Part shown: positions 912 to 36,813 of the stretch, piece by piece | Layout: every line of letters starts with the position of its first letter | Position numbering within the stretch: position 1 is the first letter of the stretch | From: Squalus acanthias | Lineage: Eukaryota | NCBI GenBank assembly: GCA_030390025.1 | Contig: CM059443.1 | Location: forward strand, 40,672,001 to 40,736,000 | DNA length: 64,000 nucleotides | Reading direction: 5' to 3' | The notes under the pieces: model-generated | The model's database searches: none | What the model saw: the letters and a program-made list of their open reading frames with translations, nothing else | Told to the model about the DNA's origin: nothing | Translations under genes and position numbers: made by a program

Positions 912-1015
912 TAACCTTGATATTATAAACCTTCTTTAATTAATATCTCTCTCTAATGTATTAAACTTGTGTCTGTGTGCACTTCCTATCAGCTTTCCCT
1001 CTTATAAATGATTAC

Positions 1016-1779: not shown

Positions 1780-1857
1780 GTCCTGGCCCTGCAGGGTGAA
1801 TACATGGAGGCCATACCTGTCCTGAGGAAAGCTGCAAGACTGGAGCCGTCAAACAAG
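1780..1857 (+). CDS. FKBP8: FKBP8 exon (TPR3)
   Basis: tttccag| and AAG|gtgagc; VLALQGEYMEAIPVLRKAARLEPSNK; 78 nt, phase 0-0. Confidence 0.93.
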
Positions 1858-1995
1858 GTGAGCGGGAGGCCTGGGGTGCAGTCGCGATCGCTGTCGCGTG
1901 TTGCTGAGTGGGAGCCTGGGCATCGAGGCCAGCTTGGCAAAGGTTCATTCGTGTGTAAGGAACGGTCCTGTCTCCAGCACGACCACGGCGCCTAG

Positions 1996-2262
1996 TGTCT
2001 GAGACTGTGTCTGTGTGTGTGTGTGTGTGTGTGTATGAGACTGTATCTGTGTGTGTGTATGAGACTGTGTCTGTATCTGTGTGTGTGTATGAGACTGTGT
2101 CTGTATCTGTGTGTGTGTGTATGAGACTGTCTGTATCTGTGTGTGTGTATGAGACTATCTGTGTGTGTGTGTGTATGAGACTGTATGTGTGTGTGTGGTG
2201 AATGTTATACGGGGTGAATGTTATACGGGGTGAATGTTATACGGGGTGAATGTTACACGTGG
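1996..2262. repeat. GT-rich compound microsatellite plus 16-bp gtgaatgttatacggg x4
   Basis: Direct inspection. Confidence 0.9.
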
Positions 2263-2389
2263 TGACCGTTTATATATTAAGAGTCCTGGGTCTCTTTCAA
2301 CTTGCTCCTTTGCTGTTCCAACACCATCCATGGAGGTCATGTTGTCTATTCTGCTTTTCAGTTTGTAGCACCTAACACTTGTCTATTTT

Positions 2390-2512
2390 AAGAAGGAAAG
2401 GACTTACATTTAAATAGCGCCTTTCATGGCCTCCGAACATCCCAAAGCACTTCACAAAAGCACTTCATTGGCTGTTGTGTAGTCACTGTTGTAATGTAGG
2501 AAACGCAGCAAC
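2390..2512 (-). mobile_element. Deu-domain-like SINE 3' fragment
   Basis: gtagtcactgttgtaatgtaggaaac motif shared with 16308-17040 and 36353-36813. Confidence 0.7.
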
Positions 2513-3021
2513 CCTGGGCCACAGCTGACATTGTTCTGCTCACTTACATGCCTTATCCAACTAGTTGTGTAATTCCTGAGTAGTCTCTTTCGCTCTCCTC
2601 CTCCTAGTTTGGGATCATCTGCAAATTTGTCTAAGTTCCTGAATCCAGATCATGATGTAAATTAGAAAGAGTCATGGTCCCCGTGCGGATCCCCCCATTC
2701 AGTATTCCCCCCACTCTGACGTCACTCCAATTATCAGTACTCATTTCTAACGCTTCAACCAGTTTATTACCCATTCCCTTACCCGGAATAGCCACAGCTT
2801 TGAGTTTAACTAAAAGCCTTTCATGTGGAACTTTGTCAAATGTCTTCTGGAAATCTGCCGATCAGAGACCCCACACTCCTCTTGGATTGTCACTTCCGTA
2901 AAGAAGTCCAAGGTTTGGTCGGGCAAGAGCTTCCTCTTCCTGAATGCACTCTGACTGACTGTTTGCCGAGTGTTTCACTTGTATATTTTACGCTCTCCTG
3001 ACTGTTGCTCCCGCTCTGCAG

Positions 3022-3153
3022 GCGATTCAGGCCGAACTCTCCCAGCTGGTGAGGAAGCAGTCGGAGCAGCGGACGGTGGAGCAGGCCATGTATCGGAAGA
3101 TGCTCGGAGACATGGCTGTGCCCCCTCTCTCCTCGCCAGCTCGATCATCATGG
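3022..3153 (+). CDS. FKBP8: FKBP8 exon (calmodulin-binding region)
   Basis: ctgcag| and TGG|gtaagt; AIQAELSQLVRKQSEQRTVEQAMYRKMLGDMAVPPLSSPARSSW. Confidence 0.92.
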
Positions 3154-12775: not shown

Positions 12776-13272
12776 TTACAGGCTGGAGTCATCCGTTTCG
12801 TGAGGAAGTTCCAACAGCGGGTCGGAAAACCTCCGCTGGACCTTGGCCGGAGTGGGTTTGGCCTCGTCGGCCTGAGCAGTGGCCTGTGGCAGTTCGACCT
12901 CCCGCGCAGCGACGTACATTGAGCGGATGTTGTCAGATCGCCGCGAGGGCATCTCGCGCCGTCTCAGAGTGACTGCCAGCGGGTGCTGCTGCCCGTCCCC
13001 GGTGCCAGGGCTCACCGGGACGGCGCCCGTGGTGCTGACCATGCCAGGAGGCAGTTTGATGTTCCCCGTGGGCAGCGCGGCATTGCGCCGGGGCAGCCTG
13101 ATGCTCGCGAGCATGGAGAACGCGCGCCGCTGCATGATGGGAGGGCGAGCTGGCAGAGACTCGTGTTCAGTCGGGGGGGAGACGCGCTCTTTGACGGCGG
13201 GCGGAGGCTGGAGCGCAGACACGGACCGAAGCGAACGTCGGAGACTTCCTGTGAACTGGAACACTGCTGGAC
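12776..13272 (-). CDS. MYO9B: MYO9B last exon (proline-rich tail)
   Basis: ctctccag acceptor, phase 1; LPRRNAALPTGNIKLPPG, RRREMPSRRSDNIRSMYV and RRFSDP resemble the human MYO9B tail. Confidence 0.9.
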
Positions 13273-13538
13273 CTGGAGAGAGACAAAGAGAAAGCGTTTA
13301 CTCATTCACACCGTCTCCCCGGAGCTCGCCCGTTTCTCCGGGGCCCCCCCACAAACACCCGTTTCTCCGGAGCCCACCCCCCGCAGACGCCTGTCTCCCC
13401 ACTTCCTGTACGCAGACTCCCCGGCGCACTGCCCAATTACAATTGTACTCCGAGCCTGAGCTGACCCCACAGCCACTGCAGGTGAAAGAACCTCAGAAAT
13501 ACAGAAGTACACAAGATTGCAACCTACTTTTTACTGAC

Positions 13539-13666
13539 CTCCGGACTCTGGGTGCCCCGGTCGATCATCGAGGAGACTCTCCATACTGAGGGAGGCCTCC
13601 GAGTCCATGTTTTCCTCATCGGAGCCCCTCTGCTCTAACTCCGGGAGCTCGAGGGTCAGCTGATCT
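13539..13666 (-). CDS. MYO9B: MYO9B exon
   Basis: cccgcag| and G|gtcagt; DQLTLELPELEQRGSDEENMDSEASLSMESLLDDR. Confidence 0.9.
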
Positions 13667-13807
13667 CTGCGGGATGGAGCAGAGAAACAGAGAGAGTTTT
13701 ACTGGACCGCAAGAGCCCAGTGCCCAGCCTGTGCGGAATGAGAGCAGATCCCGGGCTCTCAGTACGAGGACACTGGGATTAGCCTTGGGTAGTGAGGGAG
13801 GACCTCG

Positions 13808-14340
13808 GTGTCCGTGGAACCTGTACCCCAGTGAGAGTCAGTGTCTGTGGAACCCATACCCCAGTGAGAGTCAGTGCCTGTGGAACCCGTACCCCAGTGA
13901 GAGTCAGTGCGTGTGGAACCCGTACCCCAGTGAGAGTCAGTGTCTGTGGAACCCGTACCCCAGTGAGAGTCAGTGTCTGTGGAACCCGTACCCCAGTGAG
14001 AGTCAGTGTCTGTGGAACCCGTACCCCAGTGAGAGTCAGTGTCTGTGGAACCCGTACCCCAGTGAGAGTCAGTGTCTGTGGAACCCACACCCCAGTGAGA
14101 GTCAGTGCCTGTGGAACCCGTACCCCAGTGAGAGTCAGTGTGTGGGGAACCTGTACCCCAGTGAGAGTCAGTGTGTGTGGAACCTGTACCCCAGTGAGAG
14201 TCAGTGTCTGTGGAACCCGTACCCCAGTGAGAGTCAGTGTGTGGGGAACCTGTACCCCAGTGAGAGTCAGTGTCTGTGGAACCCGTACCCCAGTGAGAGT
14301 CAGTGTCTGTGGAACCCGTACCCCAGTGAGAGTCAGTGCC
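13808..14340. repeat. 33-bp minisatellite, about 16 copies
   Basis: gtggaacccgtaccccagtgagagtcagtgtct. Confidence 0.95.
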
Positions 14341-14368
14341 CCTCAGTATGGTGCTCCCCTCGACTGAC

Positions 14369-14511
14369 CTCTCCTGCTTTATCGACTGGATTCGCTCGAT
14401 CAGAATTTCCTCTTCGTGTTCCATGTCCGTGTCGGAAGGCTCTTCCTCATCCAGACTTACCAACTTTGGGGTATTCTCCGCATCAGGTTTTGGGGTCCGA
14501 GGTCCTTTGCT
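14369..14511 (-). CDS. MYO9B: MYO9B exon (coiled coil)
   Basis: cttttag| and AG|gtcagt; SKGPRT...EEEILIERIQSIKQE. Confidence 0.88.
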
Positions 14512-15417
14512 CTAAAAGGGGGGCGGGGGAAGAAGATGGTGATTGTTACTGAGCTCCTTGTGGTGCCAGGCTCTATCCGGGGCCTGTGCTGAGCTACCAG
14601 ACCACAGCCAGGGTGGCGATGGGTCCCGGGGGCCCCAGGATTGTTGTGGACAAGGGCTAGAAATCAGTCAGGGACCCTGCTCCTGACCCAGAGACTCCTG
14701 TGTGCATGCGGACAGGGTTGGGGCTTGCTGTGAAGCCCCCCCCGGTACAATATCCTGCCGATACTCACCCTCCAAGCTCACACGGGCTCGGGGGGGGGGG
14801 GTGTCGTCTGTTGAACTAGCCCAGGAAGAGGCTTCATGAGTGGATTTGGGGGGGGGTGTGGGTAATGTAAATGATCCCACCCACAGACAGTTCCTTGGTG
14901 TTTCTCCCCAGGGTGGTGTCCAGTTCCTGGCTGGGTGGGAGTCGGAGTGAGGGGATGCGGGGGGTTGATGGGAGTGAGGGATGGGGGTGGGGGGTGACGA
15001 GAGGGGGGTGGGGGTGACGGGGGTTGGGGGCGAGGGGAATCTCCAGTCAGACGTTGGCCACGCTGCTTCCTCTCCGAGATTTGCCCCACACTTTTAGTGA
15101 ATCAATCTCTCCCCCCCCCCCACCAAATGTTTGTGGCTGAGATCAGGGAACATTGGGGGCAATTAATAACGAACCCTGACCCCGCTTGCAGTCACGCCCA
15201 AGGGGCAGAACGTTGCCTTGGCAGCACCAGGACGATGGGAACAGCGAGGGGGGGCTTGGAGTGTCGAACCAAATCGGGGAGTGTACGGGTCAGTGAGCAG
15301 TGCGAGGTTCAGGGGGCAGGGTTCAGGTCAGTTCCTCGTGGATTGGCATGCGACACACACAACAACAACAACAACAACAACAACAACACATGCGATGCAA
15401 GAGGCGCCTGCTAGTGA

Positions 15418-15555
15418 TGGAGGTCAGTGCGGGGTGGGGTTGGAGGTCAGTGCGGGAAGGGTTGGAGGTCAGCGCGGGAAGGGTTGGAGGTCAGCGCGGG
15501 AAGGGTTGGAGGTCAGCGCGGGAAGGGGTTGGAGGTCAGTGCGGGGTGGGGTTGG
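15418..15555. repeat. 22-bp minisatellite, preceded by (aac)n at 15360-15388
   Basis: ggaggtcagcgcgggaagggtt. Confidence 0.85.
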
Positions 15556-15628
15556 GTGACATGCGAGAACCATGGAATGAAGACAGAGCATGCGGAGAAA
15601 GGGTCAACCGAACTAGCCCAGTACCTAC

Positions 15629-15676
15629 CAGCACCCCATCGCATGGAGTAGAGAACCCAACTTCAAGAGGCCAAAG
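15629..15676 (-). CDS. MYO9B: MYO9B 48-nt exon
   Basis: ctctccag| and CTG|gtaggt; LWPLEVGFSTPCDGVL versus mammalian PWPLKLGFSSPYEGVL. Confidence 0.85.
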
Positions 15677-16133
15677 CTGGAGAGCGAGAGCGAGGGAGAG
15701 AGAGAAAAGGCACCAAACTCAGTCCCAATCATCACCGTCACAACCAGGTACGAAAACGTCAACAGAGCAAATTCTTCAACCACTCCCACAACAAAGGACC
15801 AGCCTCTCGCTTCCAGTCACTGCCCACTCCCCGCCCCTCCCACTCCCCGCTCCCAGTCCGGTGACCCAGATGCCCCAGACCCACCAGGGCATCCGTCACT
15901 CTCGGCCTCTGTTCGATTGGAATTTCTGATCAGGACAGAGGCTGGAACACCAAATCCCGACTAAAAAAACCGGGATGGACAACCGATCAAAACTGAAGTT
16001 ACGAAGAGACGAATCCCCAAAGAGACACTCCTCCGGTTCAAAAACAAAGAGTGGGATACAGGCTCGAAGGGCTGAATGGCCTCCTGCTGTTCCTATGTTC
16101 CGAAGCACGGTTACCATAGTTTTACCGACTTAC

Positions 16134-16248
16134 GCGCAGGAGCGAGAGACGTCGGACCGCCAGCTGTTCAGCCGTCTCCAGGTGGGTGATTTCGGCCATT
16201 TTCATTTTGTATTTCCGAATCTGTTCGGTGATCAGGAGCTCGACACAC
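16134..16248 (-). CDS. MYO9B: MYO9B exon (end of RhoGAP and coiled coil)
   Basis: ttggcag| and CGC|gtaagt; [38 protein letters not shown]. Confidence 0.88.
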
Positions 16249-16307
16249 CTGCCAACAAAACACAGAAACTCCCGTCAACCGGAGCAAACCCCATCAGTGC
16301 CGATCAG

Positions 16308-17040
16308 AAAGAAAGACTTGCATTTCTATAGCGCCTTTCTCCAACTCAGGACGTCCCAAAGCGCTTTACAGCCAATTAAGTACTTTTTTGAAGTGTAGTC
16401 ATTGTTGTAATGTAGGAAACACGGCAGCCAATATGCACAGAGCAAGATCCCACAAACAGCAATATGATAATGACCAGATAATTTGTTTTAGTGATGTTGG
16501 TTGAGGGATAAATATTGGCCCAGGACACCGGAGAGAACTCCCCTGCTCTTCTTTGACATAGCACCATGGGATCTATTACGTCCACCTGAGAGAGCAGACA
16601 GGGCCTCAGATTAACGTCTCATCCAAAAGACGGCACCTCCGACAGTGCAGCACTCCCTCAGTACTGCCCCTCTGACAGTGCGGCGCTCCCTCAGTACTGC
16701 CCCTCCGACAGTGCAGCGCTCCCTCAGTACTGCCCCTCCGACAGTGCAGCACTCCCTCAGTACTGCCCCTCCGACAGTGCAGCACTCCCTCAGTACTGCC
16801 CCTCTGACAGTGCGGCGCTCCCTCAGTACTGCCCCTCCGACAGTGCAGCGCTCCCTCAGTACTGCCCCTCCGACAGTGCAGCACTCCCTCAGTACTGCCC
16901 CTCCGACAGTGCGGCGCTCCCTCAGTACTGCACTGGAGTGTCAGCCTAGATTTTTGTGCTCAAGTCTCTGGAGTGGGACTTGAACCCACAACCTTCTGAC
17001 TCAGAGGCGAGAGTGCTGCCCACTGAGCCACAGCCGACAC
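16308..17040 (-). mobile_element. Deu-domain-like tRNA-derived SINE with an internal 33-bp tandem expansion (16639-16930)
   Basis: Colinear with 36353-36813 apart from about 9 copies of ccgacagtgcagcactccctcagtactgcccct; tRNA-like head near 16975-17035. Confidence 0.82.
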
Positions 17041-17395
17041 TGATGGTCCTCCATTTGGCCCCTCGAGCCTGCTCCGCCATTCAATAAAATCATGGCTGAT
17101 CTGATCTTGGCCTCAGCTCCACTTTCCTGCCCACTCCCCTTACCCTCGACTCCCCTATAGTTCAAAAATCTAGCTCCACCTTAAATATATTCAATGACCC
17201 AGCCTCCACAGCTCTCAGTCCTGTTACACACACACACAGTCAGTGCTGGAACACTCAGTCCTGTTACACACACAGTCAGTGCTGGGACACTCAGTCCTGT
17301 TACACACACAGTCAGTGCTGGGACACTCAGTCCTGTTACACACACACACACTCAGTATTAGTTTCACGGTGGAATAGGAGAAGCTGAAGACTCAC

Positions 17396-17527
17396 ATGGT
17401 TGTCTTAGAGACGTCTTTCATGCTCATCAGCGGGTCGGAGCTGTCTGGTGAACGGAGAACACATGGTGCAAAGACGATCGCCAGAGCGTTGGGAGACATG
17501 CGATTCATCTCTTCCAATACAGCCACT
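17396..17527 (-). CDS. MYO9B: MYO9B RhoGAP exon
   Basis: gtttcag| and AT|gtgagt; [43 protein letters not shown]. Confidence 0.93.
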
Positions 17528-17637
17528 CTGAAACCAAGAGCACCATCATCACAAGGGAACTCACTCCAACCTCGCACCACCAGTCAGGAACAGAGAGTTC
17601 AGGGCCATATTCTGACCTCTGGGAAGTGACAGGAAGT

Positions 17638-18014
17638 AGCTGGGAGTGGTCGGGTGAAGGTTTGGTCCGCTGGGACTGGTCGGGTGAAGGTTTGGTCCGC
17701 TGGGACTGGTCGGGTGACGGTTTGGTCCGCTGGGACTGGTCGGGTGAAGGTTTGGTCCGCTGGGACTGGTTGGGTGAAGGTTTGGTCCGCTGGGACTGGC
17801 TGGGTGAAGGTTTGGTCCGCTGGGACTGGCCGGGTGAAGGTTTGGTCCGCTGGGACTGGCCGGGTGAAGGTTTGGTCCGCTGGGACTGGCCGGGTGAAGG
17901 TTTGGTCCGCTGGGACTGGTCGGGTGAAGGTTTGGTCCGCTGGGACTGGTCGGGTGAAGGTTTGGTCCGCTGGGTCCGGTCGGGTGAAGGTTTGGTCCGC
18001 TGGGACTGGTCGGG
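17638..18014. repeat. 30-bp minisatellite, about 12 copies
   Basis: gctgggactggtcgggtgaaggtttggtcc. Confidence 0.95.
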
Positions 18015-18019
18015 ATTCT

Positions 18020-18960
18020 GCATTTATTCACAACGCCTTTAACATAGAAAACTCCCACAAGGCACTTCACAGGAGTGCAGACAAAAATGGATGCCAAGAC
18101 AAAGGAGGAGATATTAGGACAGGTGACCAAAAGCTTGGTCAAATGGTGATTTTAAGGAGTGTCAAAGAAGGCGAGAGAGGAGGAGAGGCTTAGGGAGGGA
18201 ATTCCAGAGCTTAGGGCCTTGGCAGCTGAAGGCACGGCCACCAAGGAAGAGAAGGATGCCCAACAGGCCAGAGGCAGTGGAATGCAGAATTCAGGGTGGT
18301 GATGGCGAGTGGGACTTGGTGCGAGTTAGGAGCAGCATTTTGGATGAGCTGAAGTTTAGAGGGTGCAAGGTGGGAGGCCGGCCAGGAGTGTGTTGGAATA
18401 GTCAAGTCTGGAGGTAACAAAGGCATGGATGAGGGTTTCAGCAGCGGATGAGTTGAGGCAGGGGCGGAGACGGGCGATGTTATGGAGGTCGAAGTAGGCG
18501 GTCTTGGTGATGGAGAGGATGTCGGGTTGGAAGCTCAGCTCTGGGTCGAATAGGACATCGAGATTGCGATCAGTCTGGTTCAACCTGAGACAGTGGCCAG
18601 GGAGGAAGATGGACTCCATGCCGAGGGTATGGAGTTTGTGGTGGGGACCAAAGACAATGGTTTCAGTCTTACCAATGTTTAGCTCGAACAAGTAGGCTGA
18701 CAACACAGAGGCAGTAGAGAGGTCAAGCGAGGTGGTGGAGAGGCGTACCTGGGTATCGTGAGCGTACATGTGGAACCTGACCCCATGGCTGTGGATGTCA
18801 TCGCCAAGAGCCAACATGGAGAGGAGGAAGATACGGGGGCCAAGGATAGATCCTTGGGGACTCGAGGTAATGGTGCAGGGTGGAAAGCGAAGCCTTTGCT
18901 GGAGATGCTCTGGCTACGATTGGATAGGCTAAAAGTGGAACCAAGCGAGGACAGTCCCAC
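18020..18960 (-). mobile_element. L2-clade LINE RT fragment
   Basis: FHMYAHDTQ and ETLIHAFVTSRLDYSN motifs. Confidence 0.85.
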
Positions 18961-19889
18961 TGTACAATGGGAGTGATTTGGAAGGAGTTTGGTCCTTTGG
19001 GATTCTACACAATGGGAATGATTGGGTAACGGTTCAGTCCATTGGAATTCTGACAATGTGAGTGAACGGAAAGCATAAAATACAATTTTAAGAAACGTGG
19101 TTTATGAGGATTCGGAGAGTTTTACCAGCTCTTTAAATAGTGTTCTACACTGCACTCTATACAAAAAAAAACTGCAAAGCTCTAATCCCACAATATATAC
19201 AGTAGAACAGAAAGGGCTTGGAGTTTGGTCCATTGGGATTCTGTACCATGGGAATGAATGGGATGCGATTTCGTCTGTTGGAATTCTGACTGTAGAAATG
19301 AATGGGAGATAGTTGCATTTGATCCATTGGGATTCTATCCATTGGGAATGAATGGGAAGGGTTTGGGTTTGCTTGGGGCTGGGTACACTGGCATTTCTAC
19401 AGCGCCTTTCACAACCTCAATGTTCCAAAGTGACTTGGAGCCAATGAAGTTGGTTTGAACTGTAGTCACTGTTGTAATGCAGGGAAACTGCTCGTTATTT
19501 GATTTTTTTCAGACGAGCTGATTGCTTAAAGCTGCACAGAACTCAATGAATCAAAATACATTTCCATTTTTATGAAACTATCAATAGTTTATGGAGTGTT
19601 TGGAACAAATTAACTCACTGCCAAACCAGATGGCAGACTGCCAAACTCACTGGGGATTCCAGAACTGGACAAACAATCAGCCTGGCACGGCTGGTCGAGT
19701 GTCGCAGGGGCCGAGTCTTCACAGACTGAGTCAGGGGGCAATCAGATCCCAATGTGGGGGAACAGCCGACGACGCCCGTCCCTCTCTGGGGGCGAGGGGG
19801 CTCCAACTTGGCCAGCACTTGACAATTTGGAGGATATGAGACTGATTATATGGGAAATCTTGGGTATAACCCCCGCCTCTCTTTCCACC

Positions 19890-20492
19890 ACTCCCACCGA
19901 GAGTGTGACCCCCCGAACCGCCCCCTGCCCAGAGCGTGACCCCCTCCCCTCCCCCTCCCCCCAGAGCATGACCCCCCTGCCCCATCCCCTGCCCAGAGCA
20001 TGACCCCCCGCCCCTCCCCCCACGAGAGCGTGACCCCCCGCCCCCAGAGCGTGGCCCCCGTGCCTCCCCCGCCCAGAGCGTGACCCCTGCTCCTCCCCCC
20101 CCAGAGAGCGTGACCCCTGCTCCTCCCCCCCCAGAGCAGTGACCCCCGAACCTCCCCCCGCCCAGAGCATGACCCCCGCCCCACCGAGAGCGTGACCCCT
20201 GCCCCTCCCCCGCCCAGACCATGACCCCCGCCCCTCCCCCCACTGAGAGCGTGACCCCTGCCCCTCCCCCCCACCCAGAGCGTCTCCCCTGCCCAGTGCG
20301 TGACCCCCGCCCCTTCCCCCACCCAGAGCGTGACCCCGCCCCTCCCCCCACGAGCGTGACCCCGCCCCTCCCCCGAGAGTGTGACCCCTGCCCCTCCCCC
20401 ACCGAGCGTGCCCCCTGCCCCCCCACCGAGAGCGTGACCCCTCCCCCGCCCCCCCCCACGCAGAGAGTGACTCCCCCGCCCCCTCCCCCCCT
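19890..20492. repeat. C-rich degenerate minisatellite (G-rich on the MYO9B sense strand)
   Basis: Recurring agagcgtgacccc core separated by C-runs. Confidence 0.9.
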
Positions 20493-20611
20493 GGAGGAGG
20501 CAGAGGCTCCTGGTCCGAGAGTTTAGGGTTCGAATATTGACTTTCACCAGAAGCAGCCCGTTCTAAACACCCCGTCGCTATGGTTACCCCACTTTCCAGC
20601 GCCCCTCTTAC

Positions 20612-20717
20612 TTGACCAGATGGAAGATGAGGCGTTCGAGCGTGCAGTAGCTGTGGCTAGGCAGCTGGTCCAAGACATTGTAAACCGCCTGTAACTGCTC
20701 CTGTCTCCCTGGGTGTT
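20612..20717 (-). CDS. MYO9B: MYO9B RhoGAP exon
   Basis: ccttcag| and AA|gtaaga; [36 protein letters not shown]. Confidence 0.92.
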
Positions 20718-20754
20718 CTGAAGGAGAAAGGGAAAGCGAATTAAACAACACAGG

Positions 20755-21600
20755 AGTGTGAAGTGATGCATTTTGGTAGGAAGAATGAGGAGAGGCAATA
20801 TAAACTAAATGGTATAATTTAAAGGGGAGGGGGTGGGCAGGAACGGAGAGACCTGGGGGTGTATGTACACAAGTCTTTGAAGGTGACAGGACAAGTTGAG
20901 AAGGCTGTTAAAGTAAGGCTTTATTAATAGATGTGAGAAGTTGCACAACACCAGGTTATAGTCCAACAGTTTTATTTGAAATCACAATCTTTCGGAGCGC
21001 TGCTCCTTCGTCAGGTGATTAATAGAGGCATAGAGTACAGAAGCAAGGAAGTTATGCTAAACCTTTATAAATCACTGGTTAGGCCCCAGCTGGAATAGTG
21101 TCCCCAATTCTGGGCACCACACTTCAGGAAGGATGTCGAAGCCTTGGAGAGGGTGCAGAGAGATTTACTAGAATGGTCCCAGGGATGAGGGATTACAGTT
21201 ACGAGAAGACATTGGAGAAGCTGGGGATTGTTATCCTTAGAGCAGAGAAGGTTAAGAGTAGACTTGATTGGTGTTCAAAATTATGAAGGGTTTTGATAGA
21301 GTAAATAAGGAGAAACTGTTTCCAGTGGCAGGAGGGTCGGTAACCAGAGGACACAGATTTAAGGTGATTTGCAAAAGAACCAGAGGGGAGATGAAGAGAA
21401 TTTTTTTAACGCAGCGGTGGAAGCAGATTCAATAATAACTTTCAAAAGGGAATTGGAGAAATACTTGAAGGGGAAACATGTGTAGGACTATGGGGAAAGA
21501 GCAGGGGAGTGGGACTATTTGGAGAGCTCTTTCAAAGAGCCGGCACAGGCACGATGGGCCGAATGGCCTCCTTCTGTGCTGTAAGATTCTAGGATTCTTA
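20755..21600 (+). mobile_element. CR1 3' fragment carrying a nested insertion
   Basis: [10 protein letters not shown] coding motif and CR1 tail. Confidence 0.88.
20931..21018 (-). mobile_element. 88-bp hammerhead-bearing insertion; hammerhead motif at 20982-21018 has a helix III substitution
   Basis: Near identical to 10514-10601; target-site duplication attaataga (20923-20931, 21018-21026). Confidence 0.82.
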
Positions 21601-21649
21601 GCTCAGAACTGCAAAATACCCAACAGTAATACAAACCACTGTGACTCAC

Positions 21650-21778
21650 CAATAGCACGCAGGAAGTCGCTGTACAGGGCAAAGGTCATTAGCGGGATCG
21701 GAAGTTCACGGAGCCACTGTTTAAGCACCCCTGTGATAGCATGAATGTGGTACGTCTCCAAACCCACCGACATGGGGT
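21650..21778 (-). CDS. MYO9B: MYO9B RhoGAP exon
   Basis: gtttcag| and G|gtgagt; [43 protein letters not shown]. Confidence 0.94.
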
Positions 21779-21831
21779 CTGAAACACAGAGCAACACAAA
21801 CATTTCAATCAAACACACGATTGCAGTCTCC

Positions 21832-22140
21832 ACGGGTTAGATACAAAGTAAAGCTCCCTCTACACTGTCCCATCAAACACTCCCAGGGCAGGTACAGCAC
21901 GGGTTAGATACAGAGTGAAACTCCCTCTACACTGCCCCATCAAACACTCCCTGGGCAGGTACAGCATGGGTTAGATACAGAGTAAAGCTCCCTCTACACT
22001 GCCCCATCAAACACTCCCTGGGCAGGTACAGCATGGGTTAGATACAGAGTAAAGCTCCCTCTACACTGTCCCATCAAACACTCCCAGGGCAGGTACAGCA
22101 CGGGTTAGATACAGAGTAAAGCTCCCTCTACACTGTCCCT
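21832..22140 (-). repeat. 65-bp tandem repeat, about 4.7 copies
   Basis: Reverse complement of the unit at 3253-3440. Confidence 0.9.
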
Positions 22141-22268
22141 CAGGGTAATTCTGATATACACTGACGCTGGATGTATTTGGTTGGTTCTCAGTCATGGCTA
22201 ACGTTCCCTCACTGATGTTCACTCCACATCGCTCCGACACTGAAAGCAACATGAGCACCACGACCCAC

Positions 22269-22461
22269 CCTCTTCCAGCCGCTGCCGTAGCTCCTTCATC
22301 TTGTTGGCTGCACCAGACTTGCGGTAAATTCCCTCGGTGTACAGTCCGTGCATTTCCACATATTCCAGCAGCATCTCCATCACCATGGGCACCATCTGGT
22401 TCTCGTCAGTCAGTGAGCACAGCTCTACTCCGAAATGCCGGGACGCCAGGTCAGGGTCATT
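22269..22461 (-). CDS. MYO9B: MYO9B RhoGAP exon with the arginine finger
   Basis: ttgtcag| and G|gtgggt; [10 protein letters not shown]...[30 protein letters not shown]. Confidence 0.94.
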
Positions 22462-22564
22462 CTGACAACAGGGAAGAATACAGTGAGTTAGACTGGCAGT
22501 GCCACAGCTCACCGTGTGCTGCTGACGCGCTCGTAGTGCCACGTGGGCAGTGTCAGTGCCGCCT

Positions 22565-24592
22565 GGGGGCCGGAGAGCGGGCGGTGCAGAGTGCTCCTGG
22601 TGCAGTGAGAGCGGGCGGTGCCGAGTGCTCCCGGTGCAGTGAGAGCGGGGGCGGTGCCGAGTGCTCCCGGTGCAGAGCGAGCGGGCAGTGCCGAGTGCTC
22701 CCGGTGCAGTGAGAGCGGGCGGTGCTGAGTGCGCCCGGTGCAGTGAGAGCGGGGGCGGTGCCGAGTGCTCCCGGTGCAGAGCGAGCGGGTGGTGCCGAGT
22801 GCTCCCCGTGCAGAGAGCGGGCAGGGCCGAGTGCTCCCGGTGCAGAGAGCGGGGGCGGGGCCGAGTGCTCCCGGTGCAGAGAGCGGGCGGGGCCGAGTGC
22901 TCCCGGTGCAGAGAGCGGGCGGTGCCGAGTGCTCCCGGTGCAGAGAGTGGGCGGGGCCGAGTGCTCCCGGTGCAGTGAGAGCGGGAGGGGCCGAGTGCTC
23001 CCGGTGCAGAGAGAGCGGGAGGGGCCGAGTGCTCCCGGTGCAGAGAGCGGGCGGTGCCGAGTGCTCCCGGTGCAGTGAGAGCGGGAGGGGCCGAGTGCTC
23101 CCGGTGCAGAGAGCGGGCGGCGCCGAGTGCTCCCGGTGCAGAGCGAGTGGGCGGGGCCGAGTGCTCCCGGTGCAGAGAGCGGGCGGGGCCGAGTGCTCCC
23201 GGTGCAGAGAGCGGGCGGGGCCGAGTGCTCCCGGTGCAGAGAGCGGGCGGGGCCGAGTGCTCCCGGTGCAGTGAGAGCGGGAGGGGCCGAGTGCTCCCGG
23301 TGCAGAGAGCGGGCGGTGCCGAGTGCTCCCGGTGCAGAGCGAGCGGGCGGGGCCGAGTGCTCCCGGTGCAGAGAGCGGGCAGGTGCAGAGTGCTCCCGGT
23401 GCACAGAATCCCCACAGTGCAGATTGAGGCCATTTCGGCCCATCGAGCCTGCACCGACACATATCCCATCCTATCCCCGTAACCCCACGTATTTAATCCC
23501 CCTAACACTAAGGGTCAATTTATCATAGCCAAATCAACCTAACCCGCTTTGGACTGTGGGAGGAAACTGGAGCACCCGGAGGAAACCCACGCAGACACGG
23601 GGAGAAGGTGCAAACTCCACACAGACAGTCACCCGAGGCCGGATTCGAACCCAGGTCCCTGGCGCTGTCAGGCAACAGTGCTAACCACTATGCCACCGTG
23701 TTGCAGAGCGAGCGGGCGGTGCCGAGTGCTCCCGGTGCAGAGAGCGGGCGGGGCCGAGTGCTCCCGGTGCAGAGAGCGGGCGGGGCCGAGTGTTCCCGGG
23801 GGCCGGAGAGCGGGGGTGGGGCCGAGTGCTCCCGGTGCAGAGAGCGGGCGGGGCCGAGTGCTCCCGGTGCAGAGAGCGGGGGCGAGGCCGAGTGCTCCCG
23901 GTGCTGAGCGAGCGGGTGGGGCCAAGTGCTCCCGGTGCAGAGAGCGGGCGGGGCCGAGTGCTCCCGGTGCAGAGAGCGGGGGCGAGGCCGAGTGCTCCCG
24001 GTGCTGAGCGAGCGGGTGGGGCCAAGTGCTCCCGGTGCAGAGCGAGCGGGCGGGGCAGAGTGCTCCCGGTGCAGAGCGAGCGGGCGGGGCCGAGTGCTCC
24101 CGGTGCAGAGCAAGCGGGGGCGGGGCCGAGTGCTCCCGGTGCAGTGAGAGCGGGTGGGGCCGAGTGCTCCCGGTGCAGAGAGCGGGCGGTGCCGAGTGCT
24201 CCCGGTGCAGAGAGCGGGCGGTGCCGAGTGCTCCCGGTGCAGAGCGAGCGGGCGGGGCCGAGTGCTCCCGGTGCAGAGCGAGCGGGCGGGGCCGAGTGCT
24301 CCCGGTGCAGAGCGAGCGGGGCCGAGTGCTCCCGGTGCAGTGAGAGCGGGGGCGGGGCCGAGTGCTCCCGGTGCAGTGAGAGCGGGGGCGGGGCCGAGTG
24401 CTCCCGGTGCAGTGAGAGCGGGGGCGGGGCCGAGTGCTCCCGGTGCAGAGCGAGCTGGCGGGGCCGAGTGCTCCCGGTGCAGAGCGAGCTGGCGGGGCCG
24501 AGTGCTCCCGGTGCAGAGCGAGCTGGCGGGGCAGAGTGCTCCCGGTGCAGAGAGCGGGCGGGGCCGAGTGCTCCCGGTGCAGAGCGAGCGCA
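22565..24592. repeat. GC-rich 32-36-bp minisatellite, interrupted by a SINE
   Basis: gagagcgggcggggccgagtgctcccggtgca. Confidence 0.95.
23403..23703 (-). mobile_element. HE1-type V-SINE
   Basis: V-domain ggagcacccggaggaaacccacgcagacacggggagaa, tRNA B-box (attcgaaccc) and a CR1-like tail. Confidence 0.85.
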
Positions 24593-24657
24593 CCTACCAC
24601 CACTGTAGCCAAGATGGACTCAGTGCAGAGTGGCACAAGATCCCGGGACTTCCTGCT

Positions 24658-25555
24658 CAGTGAGGAGGATGCAAAGAGGCTTCAAGGCGATTTAGACAAG
24701 TCGAGTGAGTGGGCAAATACATGGCAGATGCAGTATAACGTGGATAAATGTGAAGTTATCCACTTCGGTAGGAAAAACAGAAAGGCAGAGTATTATTTAA
24801 ATGGTGATAGATTGGGAAATGTTGATGTACAGAGGGACCTGGGTGTCCTTGTACACCAGTCACTGAAAGCAAACATGCAGGTGCAGCAAGCAGTTAGGAA
24901 GGCAAATGGTATGTTGGCCTTCATTGCAAGAGGATTTGAGTACAGGAGCAAGGATGTCTTACTACAGTTATACAGAGCCTTGGTGAGACAACACCTGGAG
25001 TACTGTGTGCAGTTTTGGTCTCCTTACCTAAGAAAGGATAGACTTGCCATAGAGGGAGTGCAGCGAAGGTTCACCAGACTGATTCCTGGGATGGCAGGAC
25101 TGTCGTATGAGGAGAGATTGGGTCGACTAGGCCTGTATTCACTAGAGTTTAGAAGAATGAGAGGAGATCTCATTGAAACGTATAAAATTCTGACAGGGCT
25201 AGACAGACTGGATGCAGGGAGGATGTTTCCCCTGGCTGGGGGTCTAGAACGAGGGGTCACAGTCTCAGGATACGGGGTTGGACATTTAGGACTGAGATGA
25301 AGAGAAATTTCTTCACTCAGAGGGTGGTGAACCTGTGGAATTCTCTACCACAGAATGCTGTGGAGGCCAAGTCACTGAATATATTGAAGAAGGAGACGGA
25401 TAGATTTCTAGACACAAAAGGCATCAAGGGGTATGGGGAGAGAGTGGGAATATGGTATTGAGATAGAGGATCAGCCATGATCATATTGAATGGTGGAGCA
25501 GGCTCGAAGGGCCGAATGGCCGACTCCTGCTCCTATTTTTCTATGTTTCTATGTC
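24658..25555 (+). mobile_element. CR1 3' fragment
   Basis: WQMQYNVDKCEVIHFG and HLEYCVQFWSP motifs; ctatgttt tail. Confidence 0.92.
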
Positions 25556-25610
25556 TGTCTCTGGATGCGGATGTTTGGGCCATTTAACCAAACACCTTTA
25601 AACACCTCAC

Positions 25611-25684
25611 CTTTTTATTGCAGCTCGATTGGCAGGTGTACTGGATCTTCATCAAACACTTCTTGTGACAAGTCATTTTGCAGG
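25611..25684 (-). CDS. MYO9B: MYO9B exon: second half of the C1 zinc finger (most 5' MYO9B exon visible)
   Basis: attcctag| phase 1 and AAG|gtgagg; CKMTCHKKCLMKIQYTCQSSCNKK. Confidence 0.9.
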
Positions 25685-26294
25685 CTAGGAATGGAAAGGA
25701 AACAGACAGTTTAGCAGGTCCGACCCCGGCTACTGACCATCAAGGTCCTCGAAAGCTCTTCCCAAGCAACACACCACCAGTTGGGACTGACGAATGAACC
25801 TTCAATCGACTCGATTAAATCTTCCTCCCAGCAGAAACACTAGTCGAAGTGAATATTGACATCACTGTGTCGGTCGATGGTCGGCACGACTTGTGGTTTT
25901 AAGTTACTGAAACTTCAGCAAACTGAGTCTCCAAACTCATGACCGAAACTGCAGCAACAGCTCCTGATAATACAGGGTGATTTCCCCAGCAACACGCAGT
26001 GAGTGGACAATAGTCACGCAATGTGTGTAAAATCAATCCCAGTCACTGACAGCAGCGCAATCTCCAGACGGGGGAATCATCTCCATTCTGGCCGGGAATA
26101 GTGGGGTCACCGTACACGGAATAGTGGGGTCACCGTACACGGAATAGTGGGGTCACCGTACACAGCCAATACTTGGTACACACCTGGTGTGGACCACCTG
26201 TGTTATGGGTAAAGGATGCTCTCCCCTCCAACACCCCCCCTTCCCGCCTAACACCCCCTTCCCCCCCCCACTCTCTCCTCTCCTTTACCCCGAC

Positions 26295-26493
26295 NNNNNN
26301 NNNNNNNNNNNNNNNNNNNNNNNNNNNNNNNNNNNNNNNNNNNNNNNNNNNNNNNNNNNNNNNNNNNNNNNNNNNNNNNNNNNNNNNNNNNNNNNNNNNN
26401 NNNNNNNNNNNNNNNNNNNNNNNNNNNNNNNNNNNNNNNNNNNNNNNNNNNNNNNNNNNNNNNNNNNNNNNNNNNNNNNNNNNNNNNNNNNNN
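26295..26493. other. Assembly gap or masked run (others at 46550-46724, 47165-47510, 47650-48013, 62604-63361)
   Basis: N runs, each adjacent to low-complexity DNA. Confidence 0.95.
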
Positions 26494-27049
26494 NGAGTGT
26501 GGGGTGGGGGGGATTGTCGGGGGCGGATACTGTGTGGAGGAGGCGAGGGATGAGCCTGCTGGTCGTGTTCTTGCCCTGATTCTCCTCAGTCACTGCCGGT
26601 GTTGTTGTGGAGCTGCAGTGAGGGTCTCCGGCCCGCGGGTGGAGCTCACGCTACAGTTTGGGCTGAAATTCTGTCAACAGTTTGTGAAAAGTTGGTGCGA
26701 GGACAAAATGGGCAATTGTGTGAAAGCGTTAACAGCCCCAGGAGCTCTGCGTAAACAAGAAATCTGTTCAACGTTTGAGGCTCCCTGTGCGTGTTTGGCT
26801 GATTTGAAAGTACTTTATTTACTGTGCCCTTGTCTCACATTAATGGAATATTCAAGCACATCTACCCAAATCTCAAGCATCATCTGCAAAATACAACTTT
26901 AGCAGCATTGAAAAATGTTTTTTAAATTATTTTTGACGGTCCCACATTGAAGCCCTGGGCCGTGCTGAATTCGATGATCGGAGCTCGGGGAACCTTGGGC
27001 CTCAGAGCCACTGTGCGGGGGACAGGAACAATCAACATTCAGGAGTCAT

Positions 27050-31609: not shown

Positions 31610-31684
31610 CTGCTTGGCTGTGTTCCGTCAGTGGCAGCTTCACCGGCGACGCCACTGGCTCGCTTGCTCCAGGGATGGTGTCCA
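31610..31684 (-). CDS. CPAMD8: Probable CPAMD8 post-Kazal exon
   Basis: cttcctccccgcag| and CAG|gtaagt; phase 1-1; DTIPGASEPVASPVKLPLTEHSQA; the frame also stays open to 31284 if the donor is skipped. Confidence 0.6.
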
Positions 31685-31776
31685 CTGCGGGGAGGAAGCA
31701 GAGGTCAGAGGTCAGCCTACTGTCCTGGCTCAGGGAGTGCCTGCCAACATTCAACATCAAATAAGGACCATCGGAT

Positions 31777-32453
31777 CCTCATCCCAAACCCAGGGAACAA
31801 CCTCATTCCAAACCCAAGGAACACCCTCATTCCAAACCCAGGGAACAATCATCCCAAACCCAGGGAACAATCATCCCAAACCCAGGGAACACCCTCAGCC
31901 CAAACCCAGGGAACAACCATCCCAAACCCAGGGAACAACCATCCCAAACCCAGGGAACAACCATCCCAAACCCAGGGAACAACCATCCCAAACCCAGGGA
32001 ACAATCATCCCAAACCCAGGGAACAATCATCCCAAACCCAGGGAACACCCTCATCCCAAACCCAGGGAACACCCTCATCCCAAACCCAGGGAACAATCAT
32101 CCCAAACCCAGGGAACACCCTCATCCCAAACCCAGGGAACACCCTCATTCCAAACCCAGGGAACACCCTCATTCCAAACCCAGGGAACACCCTCATTCCA
32201 AACCCAGGGAACACCCTCATTCCAAACCCAGGGAACACCCTCATTCCAAACCCAGGGAACACCCTCATCCCAAACCCAGGGAACACCCTCATTCCAAACC
32301 CAGGGAACAATCATCCCAAACCCAGGGAACACCCTCATTCCAAACCCAGGGAACAATCATCCCAAACCCAGGGAACAATCATCCCAAACCCAGGGAACAC
32401 CCTCATCCCAAACCCAGGGAACAATCATCCCAAACCCAGGGAACACCCTCAGC
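31777..32453. repeat. 22-24-bp minisatellite
   Basis: atcccaaacccagggaacaccctc variants. Confidence 0.95.
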
Positions 32454-32717
32454 CCAGCTGGGCTGGGCTCATGTCCATCCCAAATATGGAGAGTTGATAT
32501 CTATCCCACTGTACAATGAGAGAGAGACACACAGACAGAGGGATACAGGTCGAGAGAGAGACAGGTTGAGAGAGAGACCGAGACATGAGCAGAACGATAG
32601 AGAAACAGGGATGGGCAAACTGACAGAGAGACATGTAGATAGAGAGAGACAGGGGCAGAGGGAAAGAGAACTGGAGAATGGGAGAGAGAAAGAGATAGAC
32701 AGAGAGAAAAAGACCAA

Positions 32718-33092
32718 CCTTATAAAATTCTAACAGGACTAGACAGACTAGATGCAGGAAGGATGTTCCTGATGGCGGGGGAGTCCAGAACCAAGGGTCA
32801 CAGTCTAAGGATAAGGGGTAAGCCATTTAGGACTGAGATGAGGAGGAATTTCTTCACCCAGAGAGTGGTGAACCTGTGGAATTCTCTACCACAGAAGGCA
32901 GTTGAGGCCAATTCATTAAATATATTCAAGAAGGAGTTAGATATATTTCTTAAGGCTAAAGGTATTAAGGGATATGGGGAGAAGGCAGGGACAGGGTACT
33001 GAATTTGGATGATCAGCCATGATCTCATTAAATGGCGGAACAGGCTCGAGGGGCCGAATGGCCTACTCCTGCTCCTATCTTCTATGTTTCTA
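32718..33092 (+). mobile_element. CR1 3' fragment
   Basis: RRNFFTQRVVNLWNSLP motif. Confidence 0.88.
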
Positions 33093-33266
33093 TCTGATCG
33101 GTTTGCCCTGAATTTGCCGGCCCCAATGATTTAGTCCCTGAGACACACGGTCTCCATCCGACAGCGACCTTTAACCCCTCTGCTTGGCTCAAATTGAGCT
33201 CAGGTCCCGGAGTTGACCAATCGCTGTTTGGTGGTAAAGCTCGAGTGTGAACCGAGGGTCTCTTAC

Positions 33267-33479
33267 TGGAGGGGCACTGTGACACGGGGACCTGCTCGAT
33301 TCTGGTGTTGTTTCGACATGCCGCCACCTCCATCTGACACTGGTTCCGATACAGAACTCCATCGGAGCCACACACGGGCGTCCCATCGAAGCCACAGTCA
33401 CGGTAACACGCGCAGAGCTCGTAGCGTTCCTCCTCCAGACAGTCATACACATTCTTACAGGTGCCAGACTGGACGAACC
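33267..33479 (-). CDS. CPAMD8: CPAMD8 Kazal-domain exon
   Basis: attgtag| and A|gtaaga; CACYRDCGFDGTPVCGSDGVLYRNQCQMEVAACRNN. Confidence 0.92.
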
Positions 33480-33664
33480 CTACAATAAACACAAAGAGCA
33501 TTAAAACAACTCAACTGGCCCAAATCATTTTGATCTTGTCCAGCCCTTTAGCCCTGTCGGAGGACCAGGTTCTTCCTCTGGTCAGCAGGGGGCGATGGGC
33601 TGGGCTCCAGTACACCAACAACAACAACCTGCAATCATACAGCACCTGTCTCTCCCTCGGCCCG

Positions 33665-36150
33665 TATCTAGTAAAACGTCCCAGGGCGTTTCACAGGAAC
33701 GATTATCAAACAAAATTTGACACCGAGCCACAGAAGAAATTAGGACAGGTGACCAAAAGCTGGGTTGAAGAGGTGTTAAGCAGCATTTGAAGGGAGGGTG
33801 GAGAGGCGGAGAAAGTCATGGAGGGAATTCCTGAGCTCGGGGCCTCAGCAGTTGAAGGCACGGCCGCCAATGGTGGAGCGATTAAAATCGGGGGATGCGC
33901 AAGAGGCCAGAATTGGAGGAGCACAGAGATCTCGGGGGGTTGTAGGGCTGGAGGAGGTTACAGAGATAGGGAGAGGGCGAGGGCCATGGAGGGGTTTGAA
34001 CATAAGAATAAGAATTTTAAAATCGAGGCATTGCTGGACCAGGAGCCAATGTAGGTCAGCGAGCACAGGGGGTGACGGGTGAACAGGACTTGGTGTGAGT
34101 TAGGATAGAATCATCGAATCTTACAGCACAGAAGGAGGCCATTCGGCCCATCGTGCCTGTGCCGGCTCTTTGAAAGAGCTCTCCAATTAGTCCCACTCCC
34201 CCCAGCTCCTTCCCCAGAGCCCTGCAAATATTTCCCCTTCAGGTCTTTCTTTCCTTTTCTTTTCAGAAAGCACTTACTGCATTTCTCCAGCGCCTTTCAC
34301 TACCTCAGGAGGTCCCAAAGCGCTTTACAGCCAATGAAGTACTTTTTGAAGTGGAGTCACTGTTGTAATGTAGGAAATGCAGCAGCCAATTTGCACACAG
34401 CAAGATCCCACAAACAGCAATGAAATAAATCAGCAGATAAATTGTTTTAGGTCATTCAGTCCCATTGTACGGAATCCCAACGGACCAAACCCCTTCCCAT
34501 TTAATCCCATGGGATAGAATGTCTGATCCAAGCAGGACAATGCTTAATAAAATCCTGATCCAAAGGAACATTGACCCCAACGAGCTGGCTTGTAATTGCT
34601 CAGGACAGTAAATCCACTGTCAGATTTAATCTCCAGCACCAAACCCTCTCCCTCAATGGCCTGGCTGGTTAAGGCACTGCCCAGTGAGCCATATGGGTGA
34701 GAAGGTCACAGTTCAATCCTAAGTTAGCTCTCAGTCGGGGGCCGTGATTGGTTTACACCTGTTGGCCTCAGTGCCCTGGCCTAGTGAGGGGAAACTCATC
34801 CAGGATTCCAGCTCCTGACAACTGTCCAGTGACTGTCTAAAAGGATGTGTGCGCGTGAATGAATGTTGGGTTGAAAACAGGACTGGGCACAGACATGAAG
34901 CTTCCTACAGCCGATGTTTCCGGATGAGCATGGAGCCAGGTACAGGAGGGCGGCCACTCCAGCCAGTGCCTGTGGGACTCGGGCCTTTGCTCCTTATCCC
35001 TCGCTACCCTTACCCAACAGAAATCTCTCCATCTCAGTCTTGAAAGCTCCAATTGACCCTCAGCATCCACAGCTTTTTGGGGGAGAGTTCCAGATTCCCA
35101 CCACCCTTTGTGTGAAGAAGTGCTTCCTGACATCATCCCTGAACGGCCTGGCTCTAATTTTAAGGTTCTGCCCTCTTGTTCTGGACTCCCCCCACCAGAG
35201 GAAATAGTTTCTCTCTATCGACCCTATCAACTCCTTTAATCATCTTAAACACCTCGATCAAATCACCCCTTAATCTTCTAAACTCGAGGGAATACAAGCC
35301 TAGTCTGTACAACCTGGCCTCATAATTTAACCCTTTTAGCCCCGGAATCATTCTGGTGAATCTGCGCTGCCCCCCCTCCAAGGCCAATACATCCTTCCTG
35401 AGGTGCGGTACATCGGTGGGGGGAAATCCTCCTTGTGTCTGTTTAAAGATGTTAACGACTGGTGATGGAAGGCTAGAGGTTGCATGGGAGTCTTTGTTTA
35501 TAATTTTATTATGAGCGGTGTGGTTGTCATGGTGACAGGAACTGCTGGATTATGCCCGAGGGGTGTTTCCAAAACACAGCAGAACTTTCTTGGTTACATC
35601 ACTGGGGCAGCTGCAGTCAGCACTGCCCGCCAGCGCTCCGCTGTGACTGCCACACTCCTTGAGAGATTAAGATGCGTGACGGCTCATTTACCAAGGAATG
35701 CACTTACAATTTCCAGTCCTCTCCCTCTCCTGTACTAACCAAGTCCAGTTCACCCATCACCCCAGAGCTCGCTGACCTACAATGGCTCCTAGTCCGGCAA
35801 CGCCTCGATATTAAAATTCTCATCCTTGTTTTCAAATCCCTCCATGGCCCTCGCCCCTCCCTATCTCTGTAATCTCCTCCAGCCCTACAAACCCCCCGAG
35901 ATCTCTGCGCTCCTCCAATTCTGGCCTCTTGAGCATCCCCGATTTCCATCGCTCCACCATTGGCGGCCGTGCCTTCAGCTGCCTGGGCCCCAAGCTCTGG
36001 AATTCCCTCCCTAAACCTCTCCGCCGCTCTCTCTCTCCTTTAAGACGCTCCTTAAAACCGACCTCTTTGGTCACCTGTCCTAATATCCCCTTATGTGGCT
36101 CGGTGTCAAATTTTGTTTGATAATCGCTCCTGTGAAGCGCCTTGGTGGAC
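33665..36150. mobile_element. Cluster of L2 3' ends (33665-34105, 35735-36147), CR1 fragments (34105-34245, 34990-35410) and SINE pieces
   Basis: RSTIGGRAFSC L2 motif in both orientations; RRFTRMIPG CR1 motif. Confidence 0.75.
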
Positions 36151-36352
36151 ATTCAACCATGGGGGGCACTACCACGGCGAGGGATCCTGTCCTCAGCTGG
36201 TGCCCACACATGGGTACTTTCCGGCGGGGAGGAGGGGTGACGTCATTGGGTAGTGACCAGGAGCTGGAACCCTGGCTGATTTTCGAGTCCAGGGGCTTGG
36301 AGATCAATAGTCGTGTCCCGATTAACACTCCCGAGATCAGCCAGCCAAAAGA

Positions 36353-36813
36353 TGAAAGAAAGATTTGCATTTCTACAGCGCCTTTCACAACTTCAGGACG
36401 TCCCAAAGCGCTTTACAGCCAATGAAGTACTTTTTGAAGTGTGGTCACTGTTGTAATGTAGGAAACGCGGCAGCCAATTTGCGCACAGCAAGCTCCCACA
36501 AACAGCAATGTGATAATGACCAGATAATCTGTTTTAGTGATGTTGGTTGAGGGATAAATATTGGCCCCAGGACACTGGGGAGAACCCCCCTGCTCTTCTT
36601 CAAAATAGTGCCGTGGGATCTTTTACGTTCACCTGAGAGGGCAGACGGGACCTCGGTTTAACATCTCATCTGAAAGACGGCACCTCTGACAGTGCAGCGC
36701 TCCCTCAGCACTGCACTGGGAGTGTCAGGCTGGATTGTGGGCTCAAGTCTCTGGAGTGGGACTCGAACCAATGACCTTCTGACTCAGAGCTGCCCACTGA
36801 GCCACGGCTGACA
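36353..36813 (-). mobile_element. Deu-domain-like SINE, near full length (partial copies at 38324-38620 and 42903-43140)
   Basis: Colinear with 16308-17040. Confidence 0.8.

What the first reader, a model, noticed from the sequence alone, without database searches (positions are those of the whole stretch)
12776..26493. MYO9B without a motor: intact half-C1, RhoGAP and tail, with no upstream exons
Seen: ten exons splice into one open frame with the GIYRKSG arginine finger. Upstream of 25684 there is no first half of C1 and no IQ, motor or RA exon before CPAMD8 3' exons appear on the same strand about 5-6 kb away. Established: class IX myosins are RA-motor-IQ-C1-RhoGAP, and human CPAMD8 and MYO9B are divergently oriented neighbours. 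Inference: either a stand-alone RhoGAP gene derived from MYO9B or a mis-join at the 199-N gap. A candidate first exon exists: agaATGg at 26086 to A|gtgact at 26047, phase 1, in frame (MEMIPPSGDCAAV-TCKMTC), with a weak donor.
Basis: partly seen in the sequence, partly recalled or inferred. Interest (0 to 1): 0.75.

Follow-up and report, generated by a model that had tools for sequence, protein, structure and literature searches.

The report
Shark MYO9B split by assembly gap
These are the last ten exons of a shark myosin IXb gene, and spliced RNA joins them to an upstream exon that is missing from this stretch of the assembly, so the motor-less look is most likely an assembly break and not a new gene.

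Summary
Ten minus-strand exons (25684-12776) splice to one 520-residue frame: second half of C1, RhoGAP, tail. No upstream MYO9B exon is in the window. The gap is 200 N, not 199.

The stand-alone RhoGAP reading fails. In 3 of 3 laid RNA-type runs (one study, three samples), one contig matches exon 25684-25611 with no difference, continues into the next exon, and continues upstream into letters reading PMEKVLLCCT. That is the first half of C1, identical in 5 of 14 cartilaginous-fish orthologues and absent from the window. One contig runs 2,655 nt upstream, beyond the 2,121-2,259 nt that separate this exon from the motor end in orthologues; reaching the motor is inferred from length.

No contig uses the proposed first exon. 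CPAMD8 across the gap is also cut: its terminal exon and residues ~221-1599 are missing. No laid DNA contig bridges the gap.

Verdict: ordinary full-length MYO9B broken by a scaffold join (0.93). A minor headless isoform is not excluded. Interest 0.05.

The parts
25611..25684 (-). MYO9B internal exon, second half of C1; phase-1 acceptor; first MYO9B exon present in the window
   Evidence: matched with no difference by one spliced contig in each of 3 RNA-type runs
22269..22461 (-). MYO9B exon, start of RhoGAP with GIYRKSG
   Evidence: Pfam RhoGAP E 8.7e-10; best PDB match human MYO9B 5c5s, E 8.7e-20; its first 30 letters are the 3' loose end of the contigs
21650..21778 (-). MYO9B RhoGAP exon
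20612..20717 (-). MYO9B RhoGAP exon
17396..17527 (-). MYO9B RhoGAP exon
16134..16248 (-). MYO9B exon, end of RhoGAP region
15629..15676 (-). MYO9B 48-nt tail exon
14369..14511 (-). MYO9B tail exon
13539..13666 (-). MYO9B tail exon
12776..13272 (-). MYO9B last coding exon with stop; AATAAA at 12310 downstream
26047..26086 (-).
   Evidence: no joint to 25684, and short pieces here are shared with many DNA contigs (summed depth about 12,000 against 3.5 at 26510-27050); donor 5 of 9
26295..26494 (.). 200-N gap; inferred scaffold join between two contigs, one ending in a MYO9B intron and one in the last CPAMD8 intron
   Evidence: flanks C-rich left, G-rich right on the + strand; not bridged by any listed contig
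31610..43988 (-). Five CPAMD8 3' exons (43988-43914, 42822-42717, 39847-39737, 33479-33267 Kazal, 31684-31610), residues ~1600-1794 of 1846; terminal exon absent
61194..63550 (-). Two CPAMD8 5' exons (63550-63496, 61307-61194), residues ~165-220; residues ~221-1599 are absent between here and 43988
715..3150 (+). FKBP8-like TPR exons (715-887, 1780-1857, from 3022), tail to tail with MYO9B; context only
   Evidence: first exon matches FKBP8 structures, E 2e-21; boundaries read

Best explanation
The ten exons are the 3' end of a shark MYO9B gene whose spliced RNA carries the first half of C1 from an exon outside this window, so the gene is most likely full-length and the 200-N gap likely an assembly join. 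Shown: the ten-exon frame, its collinearity with the C-terminal ~520 residues of orthologues, and the RNA junction to the first half of C1. Inferred: the gap joins two contigs that are not neighbours in this orientation; a flipped block running from the last CPAMD8 intron to the C1 intron of MYO9B would explain the same-strand orientation, the missing MYO9B 5' exons and the missing CPAMD8 terminal exon together, but needs the human gene order, which is recalled. The protein would work as in mammals: a motor that carries a RhoGAP to actin-rich protrusions and turns Rho off locally (PMC7949024, abstract and opening text).
For:: in X6, X7 and X8 one contig each covers 25611-25684 with 0 differences, with the same 3' loose end (start of exon 22461) and the same 5' loose end; that 5' end reads in frame as PMEKVLLCCT, 10 of 10 identical in 5 of 14 orthologues (6-9 of 10 in the rest); its best window match has 11 mismatches in 30. 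Downstream contig lengths (1,583, 1,594, 1,583 nt) fit the model's 1,491 nt to the stop plus 92-103 nt, ending at the tandem array 12512-12679. Upstream lengths are 1,501, 1,142 and 2,655 nt; the motor-end motif lies 2,121-2,259 nt upstream in 14 of 14 orthologues; 13 of 14 cartilaginous-fish species have a motor-bearing orthologue. CPAMD8 lacks its terminal exon (best score 33-42, shuffled means 39-41, shark-to-shark 129-159) and ~1,380 internal residues, with incompatible phases across that jump.
Against: Only 30 upstream letters were displayed, so motor sequence was not read. The three RNA-type runs are one study and their RNA label is a guess, although the contigs skip a 3.1-kb intron. No whole genome was held, so the 5' exons were not located and a second copy was not excluded. 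The DNA run did not cover 25560-25859 or 26160-26294. One flip does not explain the missing middle of CPAMD8; a second break is needed.
Confidence: 0.93

Rival explanations
1. The gene is full-length, but a minor headless RhoGAP isoform also starts from an internal promoter in the C1 intron, using the 26086-26047 exon or another one.
For: An in-frame ATG and phase-1 GT exist. Assembled contigs drop rare variants, so absence is not shown (caveat). A headless myosin X isoform is a recalled precedent, from no call.
Against: No joint from 26047 to 25684 in 3 RNA-type runs; one 130-nt X7 contig reads unspliced across the donor. Donor matches 5 of 9 consensus places against 6-9 for 14 real donors; CpG observed/expected is 0.62 against 0.58 for the window. 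Similar candidates in 14 of 31 control bins. The product would begin with half a zinc finger.
Confidence: 0.035
2. The window is right: this is a real truncated duplicate or rearranged allele of the MYO9B 3' end, and the RNA comes from an intact copy elsewhere.
For: No whole-genome search was possible; no listed contig resolves the gap.
Against: The break falls on a round 200-N gap. RNA is identical over the 74-nt exon. CPAMD8 is cut on the other side of the same gap and again further on. CPAMD8 and MYO9B share a longest-contig length in three other species, so this looks like the ancestral site and not a new insertion.
Confidence: 0.025
3. CPAMD8 reads through into MYO9B, splicing its exon ending at 31610 (phase 1) in frame onto exon 25684 to give a fusion protein.
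For: Phases are compatible and the CPAMD8 terminal exon is absent here.
Against: The 5' loose end of all three contigs matches the CPAMD8 exon end at only 6 of 30 letters and reads as MYO9B C1.
Confidence: 0.01

Closest known systems
Cartilaginous-fish unconventional myosin-IXb (MYO9B), closest Pristiophorus japonicus P0001
   Same: The 520 residues align end to end with the C-terminus: 86% to P0001, 67-82% to the other 13 species. The junction peptide into the first half of C1 is identical to P0001.
   Different: RA, motor, IQ and first-half C1 exons are not in this window; this is read as an assembly break.
Human MYO9B RhoGAP domain (PDB 5c5s)
   Same: Best structural-database match of the second exon, E 8.7e-20, with the G-x-YRKSG motif aligned.
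   Different: Only one exon was compared; activity was not tested.
Other truncated shark MYO9B models: Heptranchias P0004 (1,451 aa, low quality, 64,881-nt contig), Stegostoma P0002 (1,297 aa), Pristiophorus P0001 (1,812 aa, part of the motor missing)
   Same: Incomplete models of the same gene in 3 of 14 species, suggesting a locus that often assembles or annotates badly (cause inferred).
   Different: They break further 5', within the motor or at its end, not inside C1.
Headless myosin X (recalled, from no call)
   Same: Would be the precedent for a motor-less isoform from an internal promoter.
   Different: No such start is supported here.

Membership tests
Class IX myosin, MYO9B | RhoGAP domain with the arginine-finger motif | tested here: met
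   Pfam RhoGAP; motif aligned to human MYO9B 5c5s. That this arginine is the catalytic finger is recalled.
Class IX myosin, MYO9B | Complete C1 domain before RhoGAP | tested here: met
   Second half in the window; the last ten residues of the first half read from spliced contigs. The rest of the first half was not displayed.
Class IX myosin, MYO9B | Motor domain and IQ motifs on the same transcript | tested here: inconclusive
   Not in the window. The X8 contig is long enough to reach them (2,655 nt against 2,121-2,259 nt) but its letters were not shown.
Class IX myosin, MYO9B | N-terminal RA domain | not testable with these tools
   Outside the window and beyond the contigs; no whole genome held. 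Listed for 12 of 14 orthologue species.
Class IX myosin, MYO9B | MYO9B-type tail and orthology | tested here: met
   All 4 hits of the last exon are named myosin-IXb-like; collinear with 14 cartilaginous-fish species. No tree against MYO9A was built; two species' records are named si:zfos-588f8.1.
Stand-alone RhoGAP gene derived from MYO9B | Own first exon spliced to 25684 | tested here: not met
   No joint; contigs carry the MYO9B C1 exon instead.
Stand-alone RhoGAP gene derived from MYO9B | Short counterparts in relatives | tested here: inconclusive
   Among proteins of 288-2000 aa the last exon found 4, all 1,297-1,866 aa; the tool calls such a blank weak. could not show proteins under 996 aa.
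Stand-alone RhoGAP gene derived from MYO9B | Continuous DNA from CPAMD8 to exon 25684 | tested here: inconclusive
   No listed contig of the one DNA run laid bridges the gap; a hole proves nothing.

The most novel reading that the evidence does not exclude
Besides full-length MYO9B, this shark makes a motor-less RhoGAP isoform from a promoter inside the C1 intron, or carries a real truncated second copy, giving Rho inhibition that is not tied to actin protrusions.
Probability: 0.05. Interest if true: 0.55.

Novelty: not a real feature. Interest (0 to 1): 0.05.

Why it matters
A natural motor-less MYO9B would matter because Myo9b needs its motor to reach lamellipodia and inhibit Rho locally (PMC7949024, abstract); a headless form would test local against global Rho control. 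The evidence says this is not one. The practical value is a curation flag: the assembly breaks MYO9B and CPAMD8 at 26295-26494 and breaks CPAMD8 again between 43988 and 61194, so gene models and gene order from this stretch should not be trusted.

Tried and rejected
Whole-genome search for the 5' exons: no genome held. Run search: no holder is on record as RNA; RNA labels are guesses. DNA bridging: the one DNA run laid covered 26495-27050 with a 593-nt contig and did not bridge; no verdict. No RNA-type contig covered 26495-27050; no verdict. A possible extra MYO9B exon at 14930-14884 and a later donor at 16126 broke the frame. A CPAMD8 last exon guessed at 27010 has no orthologue support. The profile search with the Kazal exon returned mostly multi-Kazal proteins and short fragments and added nothing. 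Earlier findings: 3 look-ups, nothing. Paper searches for myo9b+cpamd8, myosin IXb/motorless/RhoGAP and myo9b/headless/alternative promoter listed no paper whose title or abstract start describes a motor-less MYO9B; only listings were seen. The shark-assembly search was seen as a listing only and not used. PMC12884960: term search found only a reference title on Myo9b splicing. In one search one donor row (61195) was set one base off and was dropped, leaving 14 of 15. dN/dS was not run: no orthologous DNA was held.

Full report
Observation. The ten exons are there. With boundaries 25684-25611, 22461-22269, 21778-21650, 20717-20612, 17527-17396, 16248-16134, 15676-15629, 14511-14369, 13666-13539 and 13272-12776 on the minus strand, all introns are GT-AG and the frame is open for 520 residues to a stop. 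Pfam places the first exon on C1 model positions 34-52 of 53 and the second on RhoGAP. The second exon's best match among solved structures is human MYO9B. The gap is 200 N at 26295-26494; four other N runs have odd lengths of 175, 346, 364 and 758. No whole genome was held.

What the gene is. The last exon finds four proteins, all cartilaginous-fish myosin-IXb-like. A second search with the sawshark tail lists 14 cartilaginous-fish species at the top, 13 with a motor domain and 12 with an RA domain on record; it could not show proteins under 996 residues. The window's protein aligns end to end with their C-termini at 67-86% identity, and five full-length orthologues find no exon upstream of 25684 in the window. 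The organism is therefore a shark-like fish closest, among those listed, to the sawshark (inference).

The decisive test. Four runs of organism A, the best holder of the last exon, were laid on 25560-27050: one DNA-type and three RNA-type, the latter three samples of one study. In 3 of 3 RNA-type runs a single contig covers 25611-25684 with no difference. Its 3' loose end is the start of exon 22461, so it is spliced. Its 5' loose end is the same 30 letters in all three and reads in frame as PMEKVLLCCT. This is the end of the first half of C1, identical in 5 of 14 orthologues and 6-9 of 10 in the others. The best window match to those letters has 11 mismatches; the candidate exon matches 8 of 30 and the CPAMD8 exon end 6 of 30. 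So the exon that precedes 25684 in the RNA is the normal MYO9B exon, and it is not in this window.

How far the RNA reaches. The contigs extend 1,583, 1,594 and 1,583 nt downstream of the exon. The ten-exon model needs 1,491 nt to the stop, and the remainder ends at the tandem array at 12512-12679, which checks both the model and the reading of orientation. Upstream they extend 1,501, 1,142 and 2,655 nt. In 14 of 14 orthologues the motor-end motif lies 2,121-2,259 nt upstream. The longest contig would therefore reach about 400-530 nt into the motor. This step is inferred from length; only 30 letters were displayed.

The candidate first exon. No contig joins 26047 to 25684, and one 130-nt contig reads unspliced across that donor. 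Short pieces of this stretch are shared with many DNA contigs (summed depth about 12,000 against 3.5 at 26510-27050), though no second copy lies in the window. The donor matches 5 of 9 consensus places, against 6-9 for 14 real donors, one misplaced row dropped; there is no CpG enrichment. An in-frame ATG with a comparable phase-1 donor occurs in 14 of 31 control bins. Contigs drop rare variants, so a minor isoform is not excluded.

The other side of the gap. The upstream exons are CPAMD8. Only about 220-250 of some 1,850 residues are matched in the window: ~165-220, then ~1600-1794. The conserved terminal exon is absent: best scores 33-42 against shuffled means of 39-41, while shark tails score 129-159 against each other and the penultimate exon scores 74 as a control. 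One orthologue isoform (P0273) has a different C-terminus. The jump from 61194 to 43988 joins a phase-1 donor to a phase-0 acceptor, yet the six best-conserved exons are 74-97% identical to the basking-shark protein. Two conserved genes thus each stop in an intron at the same round gap, and one is broken again across a 12-kb satellite and three more N runs. The gap's flanks are C-rich on the left and G-rich on the right, unlike the other four N runs, which are G-rich on both sides; this is a weak sign of unrelated contig ends. The DNA run did not bridge the gap and left holes on the MYO9B side, which decides nothing.

How the artefact likely arose. From recall, human CPAMD8 and HAUS8 lie on the strand opposite MYO9B, upstream of it. 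Flipping a block from the last CPAMD8 intron to the C1 intron of MYO9B gives what is seen: same strand, no MYO9B 5' exons, no CPAMD8 terminal exon. Linkage is supported, orientation is not: a chicken paper lists CPAMD8, HAUS8, MYO9B, USE1 and ELL in one 1-Mb region of chromosome 28 (PMC8469556, three passages), and the two proteins share a longest-contig length in basking shark, bamboo shark and elephant shark. Simple omission of sequence at the gap is the alternative, and a second break is needed for the middle of CPAMD8. Incomplete MYO9B models in 3 of 14 species, one on a 64,881-nt contig, suggest a locus that is hard to assemble.

Comparison and verdict. The gene works like, and on the tested features is, MYO9B; motor, IQ and RA membership features were not read directly. 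Mammalian Myo9b uses its motor to reach lamellipodia and inhibit Rho locally (PMC7949024, abstract and opening text), and the shark protein would do the same (inference). Three paper searches listed no motor-less MYO9B, listings only. Three look-ups of earlier findings returned nothing. The motor-less gene is most likely not a real feature (0.93); a headless isoform or truncated duplicate keeps about 0.05. Interest 0.05.

Noticed in passing
window 43988-61194: CPAMD8 lacks about 1,380 internal residues (~221-1599) across a 12-kb satellite and three N runs, with incompatible exon phases; a likely second assembly break.
   Followed up: yes
window 26495-31609: The conserved CPAMD8 terminal exon is absent from the window.
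   Followed up: yes
window 48858-61082: A 12.2-kb tandem array of a 32-nt unit (about 381 copies) inside CPAMD8.
   Followed up: no
window 715-3150, + strand: FKBP8-like exons lie tail to tail with MYO9B, where human has USE1 (recalled); no USE1 search was made.
   Followed up: partly
window 26021-26114: Short pieces shared with many DNA and RNA-type contigs of the organism but single in the window; an unidentified dispersed repeat.
   Followed up: partly
window 4818-4977 and 5680-5841: A stretch of about 150 nt near 5680-5840 reappears inside the LINE-like sequence near 4820-4980, seen by eye.
   Followed up: no
P0004, P0002, P0001: MYO9B models of three other sharks are also incomplete at the 5' end or within the motor.
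   Followed up: partly
window 13808-14338, 16636-16931, 17639-18014, 22573-24590: MYO9B introns are rich in minisatellites with 30-34-nt units.
   Followed up: no
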